Origin: Candidatus Heimdallarchaeota archaeon
GTDB taxonomy: Archaea > Asgardarchaeota > Heimdallarchaeia > JABLTI01
Direction: 5' to 3'
Length of the DNA: 14,112 nt
Assembly: GCA_030602675.1 (NCBI GenBank)
Contig: JAUVZH010000029.1
Location: 1-14,112, forward strand
Of the stretch, positions 8,133 to 11,259 are shown piece by piece. Each line of letters opens with the position of its first letter. Within the stretch, counting starts at the first letter, position 1. Below the pieces are notes generated by a model. The model searched no databases and was not told where the DNA came from. It saw only the letters and a program-made list of their open reading frames with translations. Both the position numbers and the translations under genes were made by a program.

Positions 8133-8852
8133 TTATGCACTTTCTTCTATTCTTTCGGATATATCTCCAAATTTCCTTTCTTCTTTTGCAATGAGTCGTT
8201 TAATGTTATCCCTGTGTCTGAAGAGAATAAAAACTCCTGCTAAGAACCCTCCGATTAAGAGTGGTATGCATGTAATAATATCAAACTTCATTATATAGTA
8301 GGTTTCGAGAAAGATGAATATTGGCAAAGTTGGAGTAGTAACCACATTTGCTAGTGATGTATATCTTGTTGTAAAAACAATTGTGAACCACACTACAGCT
8401 AACCCAACTGTTGATACTGGTACGAAGTTAAGGAATACTCCTGCAGTTGTTGCCATACCTTTCCCACCCTTAAATTTTAGCCACACAGGATAGTTGTGTC
8501 CTAATACTGACATTATTCCTGCTCCTACTACTACTGCTTGTCCTATTGGATCTGTAAAACCGAGAGTGTACACTTTTATTGGATTTGGTTGTATTACCAC
8601 TAATCCTACTATCAGTCTTGCTGCCCAAGCCAGTACTCCTCCTTTGATTACTACATCTCCTATGATTGTTAAAGCAGCTGCTTTTTTCCCTATTAGTCTA
8701 TAAACATTTGAAAAACCGGTATTCCCACTCCCATAATCTCTAATGTCAATTCCTTTCATTATCTTTCCTAATACCCATCCCGTTGGAAAGCTTCCTACCA
8801 GATAACTTCCTATTAGAACTAATACGTATACTACTGCTTCGTGTATTGCCAT
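8133..8852 (-). CDS. plsY: Glycerol-3-phosphate acyltransferase PlsY (acyl-phosphate dependent)
   Basis: 239 aa and multi-TM. The PlsY signature motifs are present: GSFPTGW, DIRDYGSGNTGFSN, GDVVIKG, and GHNYPVWLKFKGGKGMATTAG. A C-terminal HRDNIKRLIAKEE block is also present. An SD-like AGGAAG lies upstream of the ATG at 8852. Confidence 0.9.
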   Translation of the reverse strand: MAIHEAVVYVLVLIGSYLVGSFPTGWVLGKIMKGIDIRDYGSGNTGFSNVYRLIGKKAAALTIIGDVVIKGGVLAWAARLIVGLVVIQPNPIKVYTLGFTDPIGQAVVVGAGIMSVLGHNYPVWLKFKGGKGMATTAGVFLNFVPVSTVGLAVVWFTIVFTTRYTSLANVVTTPTLPIFIFLETYYIMKFDIITCIPLLIGGFLAGVFILFRHRDNIKRLIAKEERKFGDISERIEESA

Positions 8853-8920
8853 TTTATTATACTACTTCCTGTTTCATTCAATTATTTTATTGTTTTTTAA
8901 AAGAGTTCCGCTTATACTTA

Positions 8921-9763
8921 CTACTTTTTTATATATGTGAAGAACAGTGATCCTGGTCCTAAATGGCTTCCTACTACTGGTCCTACTAATCCTATGTATT
9001 GCACTCTGCATCTAAATGTTCCTTCCACTCTTCTTCTGAATACTTCTGCTACGTCTGGCATGTTTCCATGCGTCAATGCTATTATTGATGTGCTATCCAA
9101 TCCTTCTTCTTTCAGGTGTTCTATCATCCAATCCATTGCTCCCTCTGCTCCTGGAACTGTTGTTAAGCTTGATGTTTCTCCTTCAGCTATTGTTAGTATT
9201 GGCACTCTTCCTAATAATCTCCCTACTAATCCTCTTGCTCTACCTATTCTTCCTCCTTTTACTAGATACTTTAACGTGCTTGGAAAGCCTATTACTCTCA
9301 CGTGTTTTATTGCAGTCTTTACTATATCACATACCTCATCAATAGTTAATCCTTCATTTACTGCCCATGCTGCCATTAATACTACCAAACCTAATGATGC
9401 TCCTGTAGCAAAGGAGTCGAAAATCCTGATATCCATCATTGGTAGCATGCTTCTGGCTTGTTCTGCTGATTCTATTGTAAAACTCATTTGTCTCGAGATA
9501 TGTATTGAGACTATTGTTTCTGCTTCGCTTGTAGCATCTTCATATGCTTCAAAAAACAGTGCTGGTGATGGTGGGTTCGTTGAAGGAGTATCTCTTAGGA
9601 AAGGCATTTTATCGTAGAATTCTTCTGCTGTAAGGTTAATTCCTGCAGTAAATGTCTCTTCATCCATAAAAACTTTCAATGGTACAACTATTATCCCTAA
9701 TTCTTCCACTACTTTATCTGGCAAATCGCATGTACTATCAGTTACTATCTTGACCTTTTGCAA
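8921..9763 (-). CDS. degV: DegV-family fatty-acid-binding protein (FakB-like)
   Basis: 280 aa with a TTG start at 9763 preceded by GAGGAAAG. The N-terminus KIVTDSTCDLPDKVVEELGIIVVPLKV is the canonical DegV opening. Length and the remaining blocks (e.g. KGGRIG) fit the family. Confidence 0.88.
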   Translation of the reverse strand: MQKVKIVTDSTCDLPDKVVEELGIIVVPLKVFMDEETFTAGINLTAEEFYDKMPFLRDTPSTNPPSPALFFEAYEDATSEAETIVSIHISRQMSFTIESAEQARSMLPMMDIRIFDSFATGASLGLVVLMAAWAVNEGLTIDEVCDIVKTAIKHVRVIGFPSTLKYLVKGGRIGRARGLVGRLLGRVPILTIAEGETSSLTTVPGAEGAMDWMIEHLKEEGLDSTSIIALTHGNMPDVAEVFRRRVEGTFRCRVQYIGLVGPVVGSHLGPGSLFFTYIKK

Positions 9764-9828
9764 TGCCTACTTTCCTCAAACCATTAACATTAGCATTTAG
9801 CACTATTGCAATAATAAAAGTATTTGAT

Positions 9829-9867
9829 AAAAAAAAAGAGTATTATTTCCTCCAAAAAGGAGGAAAT
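9829..9867 (-). terminator. Hairpin plus oligo-T downstream of the fakA-like gene
   Basis: A perfect 9-bp stem, ATTTCCTCC (9845..9853) pairing with GGAGGAAAT (9859..9867), has a 5-nt AAAAA loop. On the minus strand it is followed after 7 nt by a T9 run (plus-strand A9 at 9829..9837). It sits 19 nt after the fakA-like stop and upstream of the degV start. Confidence 0.5.
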
Positions 9868-9885
9868 TTATTTCTATATTTAATT

Positions 9886-10827
9886 TTAACTTGCTTCTTC
9901 TACGAATAAGAATTCTCTGTGTTGTTTTGACATGTCATCAATCTTGAGTCGGGATATCGCACCATGTTCTTTGCATCGTTTTATTAGTACTTTTGGTTCA
10001 TTTGTATGTATGTGGACTCGTATCATATTATCATTCTTTGCCACTACTAATGATCCACCCATGGTACCAAGCATTTCTCTTGCGAATTCTGCTGTTAGAT
10101 CATCTGATTCAATGATAAACTCTGTACAGAATTGATATTCATCATCTTCTTCTGTATCTCGAGCTATTGCTTTAACTTCAGCTACTTCACCGACATCATC
10201 AAGATCTTCATTCTTGAAGGCTTTAATCCATCCTTCCATAATATAGACGAATCCTTGTCCTCCAGCGTCTACTACTCCTGCTTTTTTGAGCACTGGTAGT
10301 AATTCTGGTGTTTTTTCAAGGGTTCCTTGTGCAGCTTCATATGATGTATCTAGCATATCTAAGAAACTAGAGCCATTTTTTGCAGCTAAACTTGCTGCTT
10401 CAGCTGATTTTCTTATTACGGTTAAAATGGTTCCTTCTTGTGGATTAAGAACTGCTTCATATGCTTTTGCTGCGCCATCAACAAAAGCTTGTGAGAATTC
10501 TGCTGGTCCTATTTCGCTATAATTATCAAGAGAATTACTAAATCCACCAAAAAACTGTGATAATATAACTCCTGAATTTCCGGTTGCACCCATGAATGAT
10601 CCACGGGCAATTAATTGTGCTGTTTCTATTGTATTTGAGGCTTCATTGTTATCTAATTCTTCAATAATAGCCTCTACTGTTAAGTACATGTTTGCTCCTG
10701 TGTCACCGTCAGCAACTGGAAAAACATTTATTGCATTTAAGTGTCTGCGATACTTTTTCAGCAGATTTGCGGAAGCGCGCATCATATCTGATAATAGTTC
10801 GCCACAGAATAATTGAAGTGTTGCCAT
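9886..10827 (-). CDS. fakA: Dak2/DhaL-domain protein resembling the N-terminal and middle domains of fatty acid kinase FakA (YloV family), lacking the C-terminal domain
   Basis: 313 aa. The Dak2 signature LNAINVFPVADGDTGANM and GATGNSGVILSQFF are present. The C-terminal part (YQFCTEFII...GGSLVVAKNDNMIRVHIHTNEP...ISRLKIDDMSKQH) matches the block that follows the Dak2 domain in YloV/FakA proteins as I remember them. Canonical FakA is about 550 aa. Confidence 0.75.
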   Translation of the reverse strand: MATLQLFCGELLSDMMRASANLLKKYRRHLNAINVFPVADGDTGANMYLTVEAIIEELDNNEASNTIETAQLIARGSFMGATGNSGVILSQFFGGFSNSLDNYSEIGPAEFSQAFVDGAAKAYEAVLNPQEGTILTVIRKSAEAASLAAKNGSSFLDMLDTSYEAAQGTLEKTPELLPVLKKAGVVDAGGQGFVYIMEGWIKAFKNEDLDDVGEVAEVKAIARDTEEDDEYQFCTEFIIESDDLTAEFAREMLGTMGGSLVVAKNDNMIRVHIHTNEPKVLIKRCKEHGAISRLKIDDMSKQHREFLFVEEAS

Positions 10828-11259
10828 TTTTATATGTCTCCTGTTTATTTTTGGTATAAAACTATCTTTTTACCAATTTCTAATCTTTATTTATCTATGA
10901 CACATTTAAACATTTCTTTTACGACTAAAAAATACTATGAAAACGCGTCACAATATGCGAAAAAATTCTTTAAATATACGAAAATTGATGTTTTTATTGT
11001 TGATTAATTTACTCTTTAGAAGATTTTCTGTTGAAAAAAGTGCGAATTCTTTTGTCAAAAAAAGCATTTTTTTACTAAATTGCTTTATTTGAGTTTTTTA
11101 TAGTTGACTAAAATATTTAACTTTAACGATTTATATTAATATATATTTGAAAAAATAATAATAGGTTTGTGATATTAAATCAAAGTAATGTAAAAAATTA
11201 ATTAATTGTTGGCTTTTTTGGAAGATTTAGTGAATAAAAATTTATAAGATAGTGAAAAT

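What the first reader, a model, noticed from the sequence alone, without database searches (positions are those of the whole stretch)
8133..10827. Complete bacterial-type exogenous fatty-acid activation route (FakA-like, DegV/FakB, PlsY) clustered beside archaeal DNA-repair genes
In bacteria, FakA phosphorylates a fatty acid held by a DegV-family FakB protein. The resulting acyl-phosphate is the specific acyl donor of PlsY, which acylates sn-glycerol-3-phosphate to form lysophosphatidic acid. All three components sit consecutively on one strand here. The surrounding genes (herA-mre11-rad50 order, folliculin-like protein) point to an archaeal, possibly Asgard, host. Archaeal membranes are canonically isoprenoid ethers on glycerol-1-phosphate. 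A co-localised Fak/PlsY set therefore implies a capacity to build ester-linked fatty-acyl G3P lipids, which bears on the lipid-divide problem. Scattered bacterial-type lipid genes have been discussed for some uncultured archaea. The tight three-gene clustering is what I can see directly.
Basis: partly seen in the sequence, partly recalled or inferred. Interest (0 to 1): 0.6.

Follow-up and report, generated by a model that had tools for sequence, protein, structure and literature searches.

The report
Heimdall archaeal fatty-acid kinase–PlsY cassette
An Asgard (Heimdall-group) archaeon natively carries a stripped-down bacterial-type gene set that should turn free fatty acids into acyl-phosphate and ester-link them to glycerol phosphate, which would explain how archaeal PlsY gets its substrate and gives a cloneable test of whether relatives of eukaryotes make ester lipids.

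Summary
Positions 8133-10827 (minus strand) encode three genes. [quoted passage not shown] The second is a DegV/FakB-like fatty-acid binder. The third is a canonical PlsY with all 12 functional residues. The genes are native, not chimeric: a 98%-identical relative has the same neighbourhood on a 1.55-Mb contig.

In the 400 Asgard genomes searched, FakA-like and DegV genes occur only in class Heimdallarchaeia, and never with the C domain. The three genes keep this order in two further families. In one family PlsY and the kinase are a single polypeptide.

The host family lacks PlsX, PlsC, GpsA, G1P dehydrogenase and detectable GGGPS. It keeps CarS, one DGGGPS-like prenyltransferase, G3P-handling enzymes, and a 3,581-aa PfaA-like megasynthase beside acetyl-CoA carboxylase. 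It also has 10 divergent PlsY-like and 9 further DegV paralogues.

Best reading: free fatty acid → acyl-phosphate → 1-acyl-glycerol phosphate. The fate of that product is unknown.

PlsY in Asgard archaea is published. I found no paper on the Fak link. This scan has noted similar cassettes before on other DNA (DPANN, Hodarchaeales, another Heimdall genome).

The parts
9886..10827 (-). FakA_NL: fatty-acid-kinase-like catalytic subunit. It has the Dak2 ATP domain and the middle domain with Cys (..QFCTEF..) and His-x-His (..VHIHT..). It has no C-terminal FakB-binding domain.
   Evidence: Dak2 6.5e-43, FakA-like_M 2e-22, TIGR03599 334.5 bits over model positions 1-299 of 530; 206 bits to S. suis FakA 7w7h_A residues 7-322, with DGDTG, CTE and HxHT aligned; the closest homologues are all 312-316 aa.
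9829..9867 (-). 9-bp hairpin (ATTTCCTCC / GGAGGAAAT, loop TTTTT) followed by a run of nine T, in the 122-nt spacer after the kinase stop codon. It looks like a terminator or attenuator, so the three genes may not be one obligatory transcript.
   Evidence: Read directly from the sequence. Not tested further.
8921..9763 (-). DegV/FakB-like fatty-acid-binding protein (280 aa, TTG start preceded by GAGGAA).
   Evidence: PF02645 2.1e-66 over 1-278 of 280, TIGR00762 246 bits; aligns full length to T. thermophilus DegV 2dt8 and S. aureus FakB2 4x9x. The conserved S/T (..PSTNPPSP..), Ser (..QMSFT..), Arg (..GGRIG..) and His (..SHLGPG..) are present.
8133..8852 (-). Canonical PlsY, the acyl-phosphate:glycerol-phosphate acyltransferase. 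It has a roughly 20-aa loop insertion after TM2.
   Evidence: TIGR00023 156.2 bits against a 137.2 cut-off; aligned to A. aeolicus PlsY 5xj5. S35, N37, T41(S), R45, H92, G102, G103, K104, G105, S142, H177 and N180 are all kept.
10828..11259 (.). 432-nt AT-rich divergent intergenic region between the kinase gene and nfo. It presumably holds the promoter. An AGGAG lies 9 nt before the kinase ATG.
   Evidence: Sequence. No promoter test was run.

Best explanation
These are three native genes of a Heimdallarchaeial (Asgard) archaeon. Together they form a minimal fatty-acid kinase plus acyltransferase module.

Inferred mechanism:
- DegV (FakB-like) holds a free fatty acid.
[quoted passage not shown] It does this without the usual FakB-docking domain.
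- The membrane enzyme PlsY uses the resulting acyl-phosphate to ester-link the acyl chain to glycerol phosphate. The acceptor is G3P, which this genome can handle, or possibly G1P in sister families. The product is 1-acyl-glycerol phosphate.
- No PlsX exists in this genome, so the Fak pair is the only visible source of PlsY's acyl donor.
- The fatty acid may be scavenged. It may also come from the lineage's own PfaA-like type I megasynthase, which lies next to acetyl-CoA carboxylase.

Shown here: gene identity, catalytic residues, native status, class-wide distribution, conserved order, a PlsY-kinase fusion, and absence of PlsX and PlsC.

Inferred, not shown: every enzymatic step, the glycerol-phosphate isomer used, and what happens to the lyso-lipid.
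For: Identity and residues. The functional residues are defined in PMC5700162 (PlsY) and PMC9136124 (FakA Cys240, His282, His284).

A kinase without the C domain can work: S. aureus FakA_NL is catalytically active, with Km for FakB1 of 0.99 against 0.09 uM (PMC9136124).

Native status: the same 20-kb context lies on a 1.55-Mb contig. The cassette is conserved in seven congeners and relatives, with graded divergence: FakA 74-98%, DegV 51-94%, PlsY 62-96% identity.

Functional linkage:
- Family f6 has the same FakA_NL-DegV-PlsY order at about 30% identity.
- Family f7 has one polypeptide PlsY+Dak2+FakA_M of 585 or 602 aa, followed by an overlapping DegV gene.
- Within f6 the three genes are present or absent together: 9 genomes have all three, 11 have none, 2 are partial.
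- Natural FakA_NL-DegV fusions exist in WOR-3 and Hydrothermota bacteria.
- Li et al. 2017 reported bacterial PlsY-DegV fusions.

Distribution: FakA-like and DegV genes were found in 71 of 400 Asgard genomes, all in class Heimdallarchaeia. None has the C domain.

No PlsX was found. G3P-handling genes are present: GlpD/GlpA-type and GDPD. The megasynthase plus ACC is in families f1-f5.
Against: - There is no biochemical, transcript or lipid evidence.
- No FakA_C domain is present, so how DegV docks is unknown.
- The kinase and DegV score below NCBIfam equivalog cut-offs: 245 against 975 for FakA, 125 against 350 for FakB1.
- No PlsC-family enzyme was found in this genome or in any of 43 genomes of families f1-f3, so a diacyl phospholipid cannot be made by the known route.
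- The only cultured Asgard lipidome, from a Lokiarchaeon, showed archaeal lipids only (cited in PMC13400652).
- The PlsY proteins linked or fused to the kinase in f6 and f7 lack S35, H177 and N180, so in those families the acceptor may not be G3P.
- The spacer after the kinase carries a terminator-like hairpin.
- The region is a mild compositional outlier: tetranucleotide r 0.863 against a genome 5th percentile of 0.877, and GC at the 93rd-97th percentile of ORFs.
Confidence: 0.62

Rival explanations
1. The chemistry is the same, but the role is minor or non-structural. The cassette salvages or detoxifies environmental free fatty acids, or makes a small pool of acyl-glycerol phosphate for signalling, protein lipidation or storage. 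The bulk membrane stays isoprenoid ether lipid.
For: CarS and one DGGGPS-like prenyltransferase are retained. No PlsC is present. The cultured Lokiarchaeon showed only archaeal lipids (PMC13400652). In Firmicutes, Fak is a scavenging system (PMC9136124).
Against: The host family lacks G1P dehydrogenase (0 of 12 genomes, against 69 of 71 in the other families) and any detectable GGGPS. The canonical first ether step is therefore not visible either. The PlsY-like and DegV families are strongly expanded, and an endogenous megasynthase plus ACC is present. Both argue for a larger role.
Confidence: 0.22
2. The DegV proteins bind carboxylates other than ordinary fatty acids, for example isoprenoid acids or megasynthase-specific products. 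The PlsY enzymes then transfer those acyl groups, possibly to acceptors other than glycerol phosphate.
For: All ten PlsY-like paralogues keep the acyl-phosphate hole (H92, GGxG) but lose the G3P clamp. There are ten DegV paralogues for one kinase. The PlsY proteins linked to the kinase in f6 and f7 also lack G3P-pocket residues.
Against: The window's own PlsY keeps the complete G3P pocket and passes the equivalog cut-off. The window's DegV aligns full length with fatty-acid-bound FakB structures and keeps the carboxylate-binding residues.
Confidence: 0.12
3. The kinase is a DhaL-type subunit of a dihydroxyacetone kinase, with the EDD-fold DegV standing in for DhaK. The PlsY adjacency would then be coincidental.
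For: The Dak2 domain is shared with DhaL, and DegV and DhaK share the EDD fold (PMC9136124).
Against: YloV scores 334.5 bits against 28.6 for DhaL. The FakA-specific middle domain with Cys-His-His is present. Gene order with PlsY is conserved and the two are fused in f7.
Confidence: 0.02
4. The three genes are bacterial DNA mis-binned or mis-assembled into an archaeal MAG.
For: The composition is mildly atypical. The nearest non-Heimdall homologues are bacterial at about 40% identity.
Against: The context is identical on a 1.55-Mb contig of a relative. The cassette is conserved across the family. Every closest homologue from 50 to 98% identity is Heimdall or Asgard. The f1-f5 kinase sequences form a clade with UFBoot 100.
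Confidence: 0.01

Closest known systems
FakA/FakB fatty acid kinase of Firmicutes (S. aureus, S. suis, B. subtilis YloV/DegV; PDB 7w7h, 7rm7, 4x9x, 5woo)
   Same: It has the Dak2 ATP domain with the DGDTG metal site, the middle domain with the Cys-His-His triad, and a separate DegV-fold fatty-acid carrier with conserved carboxylate-binding residues. One kinase serves several DegV paralogues.
   Different: The kinase lacks the whole C-terminal FakB-binding domain. This holds across all 71 Heimdallarchaeial genomes with a hit. In one family (f3) the N and M domains are even separate genes. Identity to bacterial FakA is about 40%. Both proteins score below NCBIfam equivalog cut-offs. The host is archaeal. 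No PlsX partner exists to pass acyl groups to ACP.
S. aureus FakA_NL truncation construct (Subramanian et al. 2022, PMC9136124)
   Same: The domain content is exactly the same (N plus L/M). It was shown in vitro to be an active fatty acid kinase.
   Different: That construct is a laboratory truncation with 10-fold weaker Km for FakB1. Here the truncation is the natural, conserved form. It is presumably compensated by operon, fusion or membrane proximity to PlsY.
Bacterial PlsX/PlsY/PlsC phosphatidic acid pathway (A. aeolicus PlsY, PDB 5xj5)
   Same: The window PlsY passes the TIGR00023 equivalog cut-off. It keeps every residue of the acyl-phosphate hole and the G3P pocket.
   Different: PlsX and PlsC are absent from this genome and from its family. 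Ten extra PlsY-like paralogues have an altered acceptor pocket. The window protein has a roughly 20-aa loop insertion.
Previously reported 'orphan' PlsY and PlsC genes of Asgard archaea (Villanueva 2017; Coleman 2019, PMC6431249; Manoharan 2019, PMC6737245; Rieche 2026, PMC13400652)
   Same: This is the same PlsY family in the same phylum, and it bears on the same lipid-divide question.
   Different: Those papers found no source of acyl-phosphate. Coleman et al. found PlsX absent from Archaea and judged a lipid role unlikely. Here PlsY is physically linked, and in one family fused, to a Fak-type kinase.
PlsY-DegV fusion proteins in two bacterial UniProt entries, noted by Li et al. 2017 (PMC5700162), and FakA_NL-DegV fusions of WOR-3/Hydrothermota bacteria
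   Same: These are Rosetta-stone evidence that the acyl-phosphate producer and PlsY, or the kinase and DegV, act as a complex.
   Different: The Heimdall family-f7 fusion joins PlsY directly to the kinase (PlsY-Dak2-M). I did not find that architecture described.

Membership tests
FakA (fatty acid kinase catalytic subunit; TIGR03599 YloV / NF038248) | N-terminal Dak2 ATP-binding domain with the DGDTG Mg2+ site | tested here: met
   PF02734 6.5e-43; aligned to 7w7h_A and 7rm7_A, with ..PVADGDTGANM.. conserved.
FakA (fatty acid kinase catalytic subunit; TIGR03599 YloV / NF038248) | Middle (L) domain carrying the catalytic Cys240/His282/His284 triad | tested here: met
   PF21645 2e-22...QFCTEF.. 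and ..VHIHT.. align with ..YCTEI.. and ..VHVHT.. of 7w7h_A. The triad is defined in PMC9136124.
FakA (fatty acid kinase catalytic subunit; TIGR03599 YloV / NF038248) | C-terminal EDD-fold domain (PF13684) that binds FakB | tested here: not met
   the protein ends at model position 299 of 530; the only PF13684 hits in the genome are weak hits on two DegV paralogues; 0 of 400 Asgard genomes reach the full-length cut-off.
FakA (fatty acid kinase catalytic subunit; TIGR03599 YloV / NF038248) | Score above the curated family cut-off | tested here: not met
   TIGR03599 334.5 against 396.1 bits. NF038248 245.4 against 975 bits.
FakA (fatty acid kinase catalytic subunit; TIGR03599 YloV / NF038248) | ATP-dependent phosphorylation of a FakB-bound fatty acid | not testable with these tools
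   This needs an enzyme assay. The equivalent S. aureus FakA_NL is active (PMC9136124).
FakB / DegV family (PF02645, TIGR00762) | Full-length DegV two-lobe domain above the cut-off | tested here: met
   PF02645 224.6 bits (cut-off 27). TIGR00762 246.2 bits (cut-off 99.7).
FakB / DegV family (PF02645, TIGR00762) | Carboxylate-binding Thr/Ser, Ser, Arg and His residues of FakB | tested here: met
   the T of ..STNPPSP.., the S of ..MSFT.., the R of ..GGRIG.. and the H of ..SHLGPG.. align with FakB2 4x9x and DegV 2dt8. The residue roles come from my own knowledge of the FakB literature and from PMC9136124 (Arg173).
FakB / DegV family (PF02645, TIGR00762) | FakB1 equivalog score | tested here: not met
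   NF038249 125 against 350 bits. The protein is a DegV-family member but not a FakB1 orthologue.
PlsY (TIGR00023, PF02660) | Score above the equivalog cut-off | tested here: met
   156.2 against 137.2 bits.
PlsY (TIGR00023, PF02660) | Acyl-phosphate 'phosphate hole' (T41, H92, G102-G105) and G3P pocket (S35, R45, K104, S142, H177, N180), plus N37 | tested here: met
   12 of 12 residues kept. T41 is Ser here. T41S keeps about half of the activity in aaPlsY (PMC5700162).
PlsY (TIGR00023, PF02660) | Seven-TM fold with the active site at the cytoplasmic face | not tested
   The protein aligns end to end with 5xj5. No topology or structure prediction was run.
Bacterial PlsX/PlsY/PlsC phosphatidic-acid pathway (as a complete system) | PlsX acyl-ACP:phosphate transacylase | tested here: not met
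   no PF02504 match in the genome, which is 84.5% complete.
Bacterial PlsX/PlsY/PlsC phosphatidic-acid pathway (as a complete system) | PlsC-type lysophosphatidic acid acyltransferase | tested here: not met
   none in this genome, and none in 0 of 43 genomes of families f1-f3. It is present in f4-f7.
Bacterial PlsX/PlsY/PlsC phosphatidic-acid pathway (as a complete system) | G3P supply | tested here: inconclusive
   There is no GpsA. A GlpD/GlpA-type dehydrogenase and three GDPD hits are present. The FGGY kinase is ambiguous between GlpK and XylB.

The most novel reading that the evidence does not exclude
In this Heimdallarchaeial family no G1P dehydrogenase, GGGPS or PlsC was found, but CarS and one DGGGPS-like prenyltransferase are retained. 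I propose that PlsY has taken over the first chain-attachment step of membrane lipid synthesis. A PfaA-like type I megasynthase, fed by acetyl-CoA carboxylase, would make the fatty acid. FakA_NL with DegV would convert it to acyl-phosphate. PlsY would ester-link it to G3P. The second chain would be added either by the prenyltransferase, giving a hybrid ester/ether lipid on G3P, or by one of the ten PlsY-like paralogues with remodelled acceptor pockets, which stand in for the missing PlsC. If so, a living relative of the eukaryotic ancestor would sit part-way across the lipid divide.
Probability: 0.2. Interest if true: 0.95.

Novelty: new variant of a known kind. Interest (0 to 1): 0.7.

Why it matters
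Eukaryotes have bacterial-type ester lipids, yet their host lineage is thought to be Heimdall-related. A 2026 Nature analysis (PMC12872458) still calls the membrane switch an enigma.

Asgard PlsY genes have been known since 2017. They were discounted because no acyl-phosphate source (PlsX) exists in Archaea (PMC6431249). A conserved, sometimes fused, Fak-type kinase supplies that missing step.

Three further observations make a concrete pathway hypothesis: a class-wide megasynthase plus ACC, the lack of PlsC in families f1-f3, and the lack of G1P dehydrogenase in this family. The three small window genes can be cloned and assayed with methods already published for the bacterial enzymes.

The work also defines a natural C-domain-less form of FakA. 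That form is informative for the Fak mechanism in general.

Tried and rejected
- IQ-TREE on all 172 FakA sequences timed out. I used FastTree on the full set and IQ-TREE on a 68-sequence subset.
- The PF13684 hits in the own genome are DegV paralogues on C196 and C57. They are not a detached FakA_C.
- The two Fe-ADH hits are generic alcohol dehydrogenases, not G1P dehydrogenase.
- A PLD-like gene lies next to a PlsY-like/DegV pair on C91 and looked like a cardiolipin or phosphatidylserine synthase. NCBIfam matched only nuclease and defence models, and those weakly, so I dropped it.
- The FGGY kinase on C403 cannot be called GlpK. It scores 367 bits for GlpK and 364 for XylB, both below cut-off.
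- The listing of cluster members gave no organism names for the fusion clade. One genome-contig scan then named WOR-3 and Hydrothermota.
- The DhaL reading and the chimera reading were considered and rejected (see rivals).
- No structure prediction was run. Monomer models would not answer the docking question.
None returned a paper linking FakA or DegV to Asgard archaea. The library lacks most subscription journals, including Villanueva 2017, so prior mention cannot be excluded.
Full report
**Observation.** The window is contig C408 of a 2.99-Mb MAG with 459 contigs, 84.5% complete and 3.5% contaminated. Three minus-strand ORFs fill exactly 8133-10827.
- ORF 9886-10827 (313 aa) has Dak2 (6.5e-43) plus FakA-like_M (2e-22). 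It matches the YloV/FakA model only over positions 1-299 of 530 (334.5 bits, below the 396 cut-off). It scores 28.6 bits on DhaL.
- ORF 8921-9763 (280 aa) is a full-length DegV (2.1e-66).
- ORF 8133-8852 (239 aa) is PlsY, above the equivalog cut-off (156.2 against 137.2 bits).
- The flanks are HerA, Mre11, Rad50, a folliculin-like protein and endonuclease IV.
- Earlier notes of this scan place the genome in Heimdallarchaeia. The names on the closest homologues agree.

**Catalytic residues.**
- Aligned to S. suis FakA (7w7h_A, 206 bits), the kinase keeps the DGDTG metal site, the Cys (..QFCTEF..) and the His-x-His (..VHIHT..). These correspond to S. aureus Cys240, His282 and His284 (PMC9136124).
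- The kinase ends just after the start of the dimerisation helix. It has no FakB-binding C domain. The only PF13684 hits in the genome are weak hits on two DegV paralogues.
- That paper shows the laboratory construct FakA_NL is an active kinase with about 10-fold weaker Km for FakB1. The natural architecture here is therefore plausibly functional.
- DegV aligns end to end with fatty-acid-binding FakB and DegV structures and keeps the carboxylate-binding S/T, Ser, Arg and His.
- PlsY aligns with A. aeolicus PlsY (5xj5). It keeps all 12 residues that Li et al. 2017 (PMC5700162) assign to the acyl-phosphate hole, the G3P pocket and the oxyanion. The only change is the conservative T41S.

**Not chimeric.**
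- A 98%-identical kinase lies on a 1.55-Mb contig (GCA_050009915.1). The order there is EMG1, HypD, RPA, folliculin-like, nfo, then FakA-DegV-PlsY, then HTH cassette, HerA, Mre11, Rad50.
- The cassette is present in seven further genomes of the family with graded divergence.
- The closest homologues of all three proteins, from 50 to 98% identity, are Heimdall or Asgard proteins. After a gap, bacterial homologues appear at about 40% identity, largely Clostridia and Peptococcaceae where named.
- The region is a mild compositional outlier: tetranucleotide r 0.863 against a genome 5th percentile of 0.877, and GC at the 93rd-97th percentile of ORFs. This is compatible with an old foreign origin or with protein composition. 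Given, it is not evidence of misassembly.

**Distribution.** I searched 400 Asgard genomes.
- The FakA model hits 71, all in the window's class. By family the counts are f1 8/11, f2 1/1, f3 31/31, f4 3/3, f5 11/12, f6 9/22 and f7 2/2. None is full length.
- DegV has the same distribution and is found in none of 317 genomes of the other classes.
- PlsY-family hits are wider. They include about 400-aa ORFs in 77 of 135 genomes of another family, f20.
- In f3, the N and M domains of the kinase are separate genes.
- In f6, the order FakA_NL-DegV-PlsY recurs at about 30% identity. The three genes are present or absent together among the 22 genomes.
- In f7, two genomes encode a single PlsY+Dak2+FakA_M polypeptide of 585 or 602 aa, followed by an overlapping DegV gene.
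- Li et al. 2017 noted bacterial PlsY-DegV fusions.
- Together these are strong comparative evidence that kinase, carrier and acyltransferase act together.

**Phylogeny of the N+M region.**
- The f1-f5 proteins form a clade: FastTree 0.886 and UFBoot 100.
- Their union with f6, f7 and one full-length protein is weakly supported (0.919, UFBoot 62).
- The next sister is a clade rich in FakA_NL-DegV fusion proteins of 592-645 aa (0.949, UFBoot 86). One cluster of these comes from candidate division WOR-3 and Ca. Hydrothermota bacteria.
- A bacterial donor that already lacked FakA_C is therefore suggested. It is not established.

**Genome context.** Not found in this genome:
- PlsX.
- PlsC. It is also absent from 0 of 43 genomes in f1-f3 but present in f4-f7. 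This is consistent with Wu et al. 2022, who noted that Ca. Heimdallarchaeum lacks it.
- GpsA.
- GGGPS. It is mostly undetected in f1-f5 but found in 19 of 22 f6 genomes and 2 of 2 f7 genomes.
- G1P dehydrogenase. The class-level counts are 0 of 12 in f1 against 69 of 71 in the other families.

Found in this genome:
- CarS.
- One DGGGPS-like UbiA prenyltransferase next to PolD.
- A GlpD/GlpA-type dehydrogenase and GDPD.
- An ambiguous FGGY kinase.
- On C450, acetyl-CoA carboxylase subunits beside a truncated megasynthase.

The full megasynthase ORF in a congener is 3,581 aa. Its domain order is ER(NMO/FabK)-KS-AT-ACP-KR-DH-PPTase. Its best match is PfaA (868 bits, below the cut-off). It is flanked by carboxyltransferase, biotin carboxylase, BCCP and an alpha/beta hydrolase. 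It is near-universal in f1-f5: 11/11, 1/1, 28/31, 2/3 and 11/12. It is essentially absent from f6 and f7 and sporadic elsewhere in the phylum. A megasynthase with an integral ACP cannot feed PlsX. Release of a free acid followed by Fak activation would be a coherent route to PlsY. That link is inference.

**Paralogue expansion.** The genome has 10 more PlsY-like and 9 more DegV genes but only one kinase. Adjacent PlsY-like/DegV pairs lie on C91, C351 and C162, and a tandem PlsY-like pair lies on C21. All ten PlsY-like proteins keep H92 and the GGxG loop, which form the acyl-phosphate hole. They lose different combinations of the G3P-pocket residues. The PlsY expansion is specific to family f1. 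The DegV expansion is shared with f3. PlsY copy number is highest where PlsC is absent. This suggests, but does not show, that some paralogues replace PlsC. The genomes are related to one another, so the pattern cannot be tested statistically.

**Literature.**
- PlsY and PlsC in Asgard archaea are published (PMC6431249, PMC6737245, PMC8813620, PMC13400652).
- Coleman et al. found no archaeal PlsX and doubted a lipid role.
- Rieche et al. 2026 showed that bacterial PlsY accepts both G1P and G3P, and named Asgard plsY.
- I found no paper linking FakA or DegV to Asgard archaea. The library is incomplete.
- NCBI already annotates these proteins as 'DAK2 domain-containing', 'DegV family' and 'PlsY'.
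- This scan has noted comparable cassettes before in DPANN archaea, Hodarchaeales and another Heimdall genome. I treat those notes as leads only.

**Verdict.** The most likely mechanism is free fatty acid → DegV-bound acyl-phosphate, made by a natural FakA_NL → 1-acyl-glycerol phosphate, made by PlsY. I put confidence at about 0.6. The fate of the product is unknown. I classify this as a new variant of a known system, with high relevance to the lipid-divide question.

Noticed in passing
G000 contig C450 (L042:3-3854 minus strand, truncated); full ORF in congener L052:8256-19001 (G085:C22): A giant single-ORF PfaA-like type I megasynthase of 3,581 aa, with domain order ER(NMO/FabK)-KS-AT-ACP-KR-DH-PPTase. 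It is flanked by acetyl-CoA carboxylase subunits (CT, BC, BCCP) and an alpha/beta hydrolase. It is near-universal in Heimdallarchaeial families f1-f5, essentially absent from f6 and f7, and sporadic in two other Asgard families.
   Followed up: partly
G000 contigs C91, C351, C162, C21, C456, C369, C378, C282, C439 (PlsY-like); C196, C44, C57, C278, C441, C446, C162, C351, C91 (DegV): Ten divergent PlsY-like and nine extra DegV paralogues accompany a single kinase. Three PlsY-like/DegV pairs are adjacent and two PlsY-like genes are in tandem. The PlsY-like proteins keep the acyl-phosphate hole but lose the G3P pocket. The PlsY expansion is specific to this family.
   Followed up: partly
Whole genome G000 and 82 other genomes of the class: Family f1 has no detectable G1P dehydrogenase (0 of 12 genomes, against 69 of 71 in the other families). 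Pfam-type GGGPS is mostly undetected in f1-f5. PlsC-type acyltransferases are absent from f1-f3 (0 of 43) but present in f4-f7. CarS is present almost everywhere.
   Followed up: partly
L017:3098-4855 minus strand (G079) and L018:2717-4525 minus strand (G080): A natural fusion protein PlsY-Dak2-FakA_M of 585 or 602 aa, followed by an overlapping DegV gene, in two genera of Heimdallarchaeial family f7.
   Followed up: partly
L021:4835-5518, L022:4718-5347, L023:4703-5023 (complete genome G015, family f3): In family f3 the kinase is split. There are two separate N-domain genes of about 210-227 aa and a free-standing 106-aa middle-domain gene, at distant loci.
   Followed up: no
L038-L041 (candidate division WOR-3 and Ca. 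Hydrothermota bacterial contigs): Bacterial proteins of 592-645 aa in which FakA N+M is fused directly to a genuine DegV domain in place of FakA_C. At least nine 50%-identity clusters exist. In the trees they group next to the Heimdall kinases (FastTree 0.949, UFBoot 86).
   Followed up: partly
Family f20 genomes, e.g. G270:C6:56828-62954: ORFs of about 400 aa with an N-terminal PlsY-like domain (model positions 1 to about 155) occur in 77 of 135 genomes of another Asgard family, sometimes several in a row. That family has no FakA-like or DegV gene.
   Followed up: no
window 8133-10827: The cassette is a mild compositional outlier. Tetranucleotide correlation to the genome is 0.863 (genome 5th percentile 0.877). 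Gene GC is 37.2-38.6%, at the 93rd-97th percentile of ORFs.
   Followed up: yes
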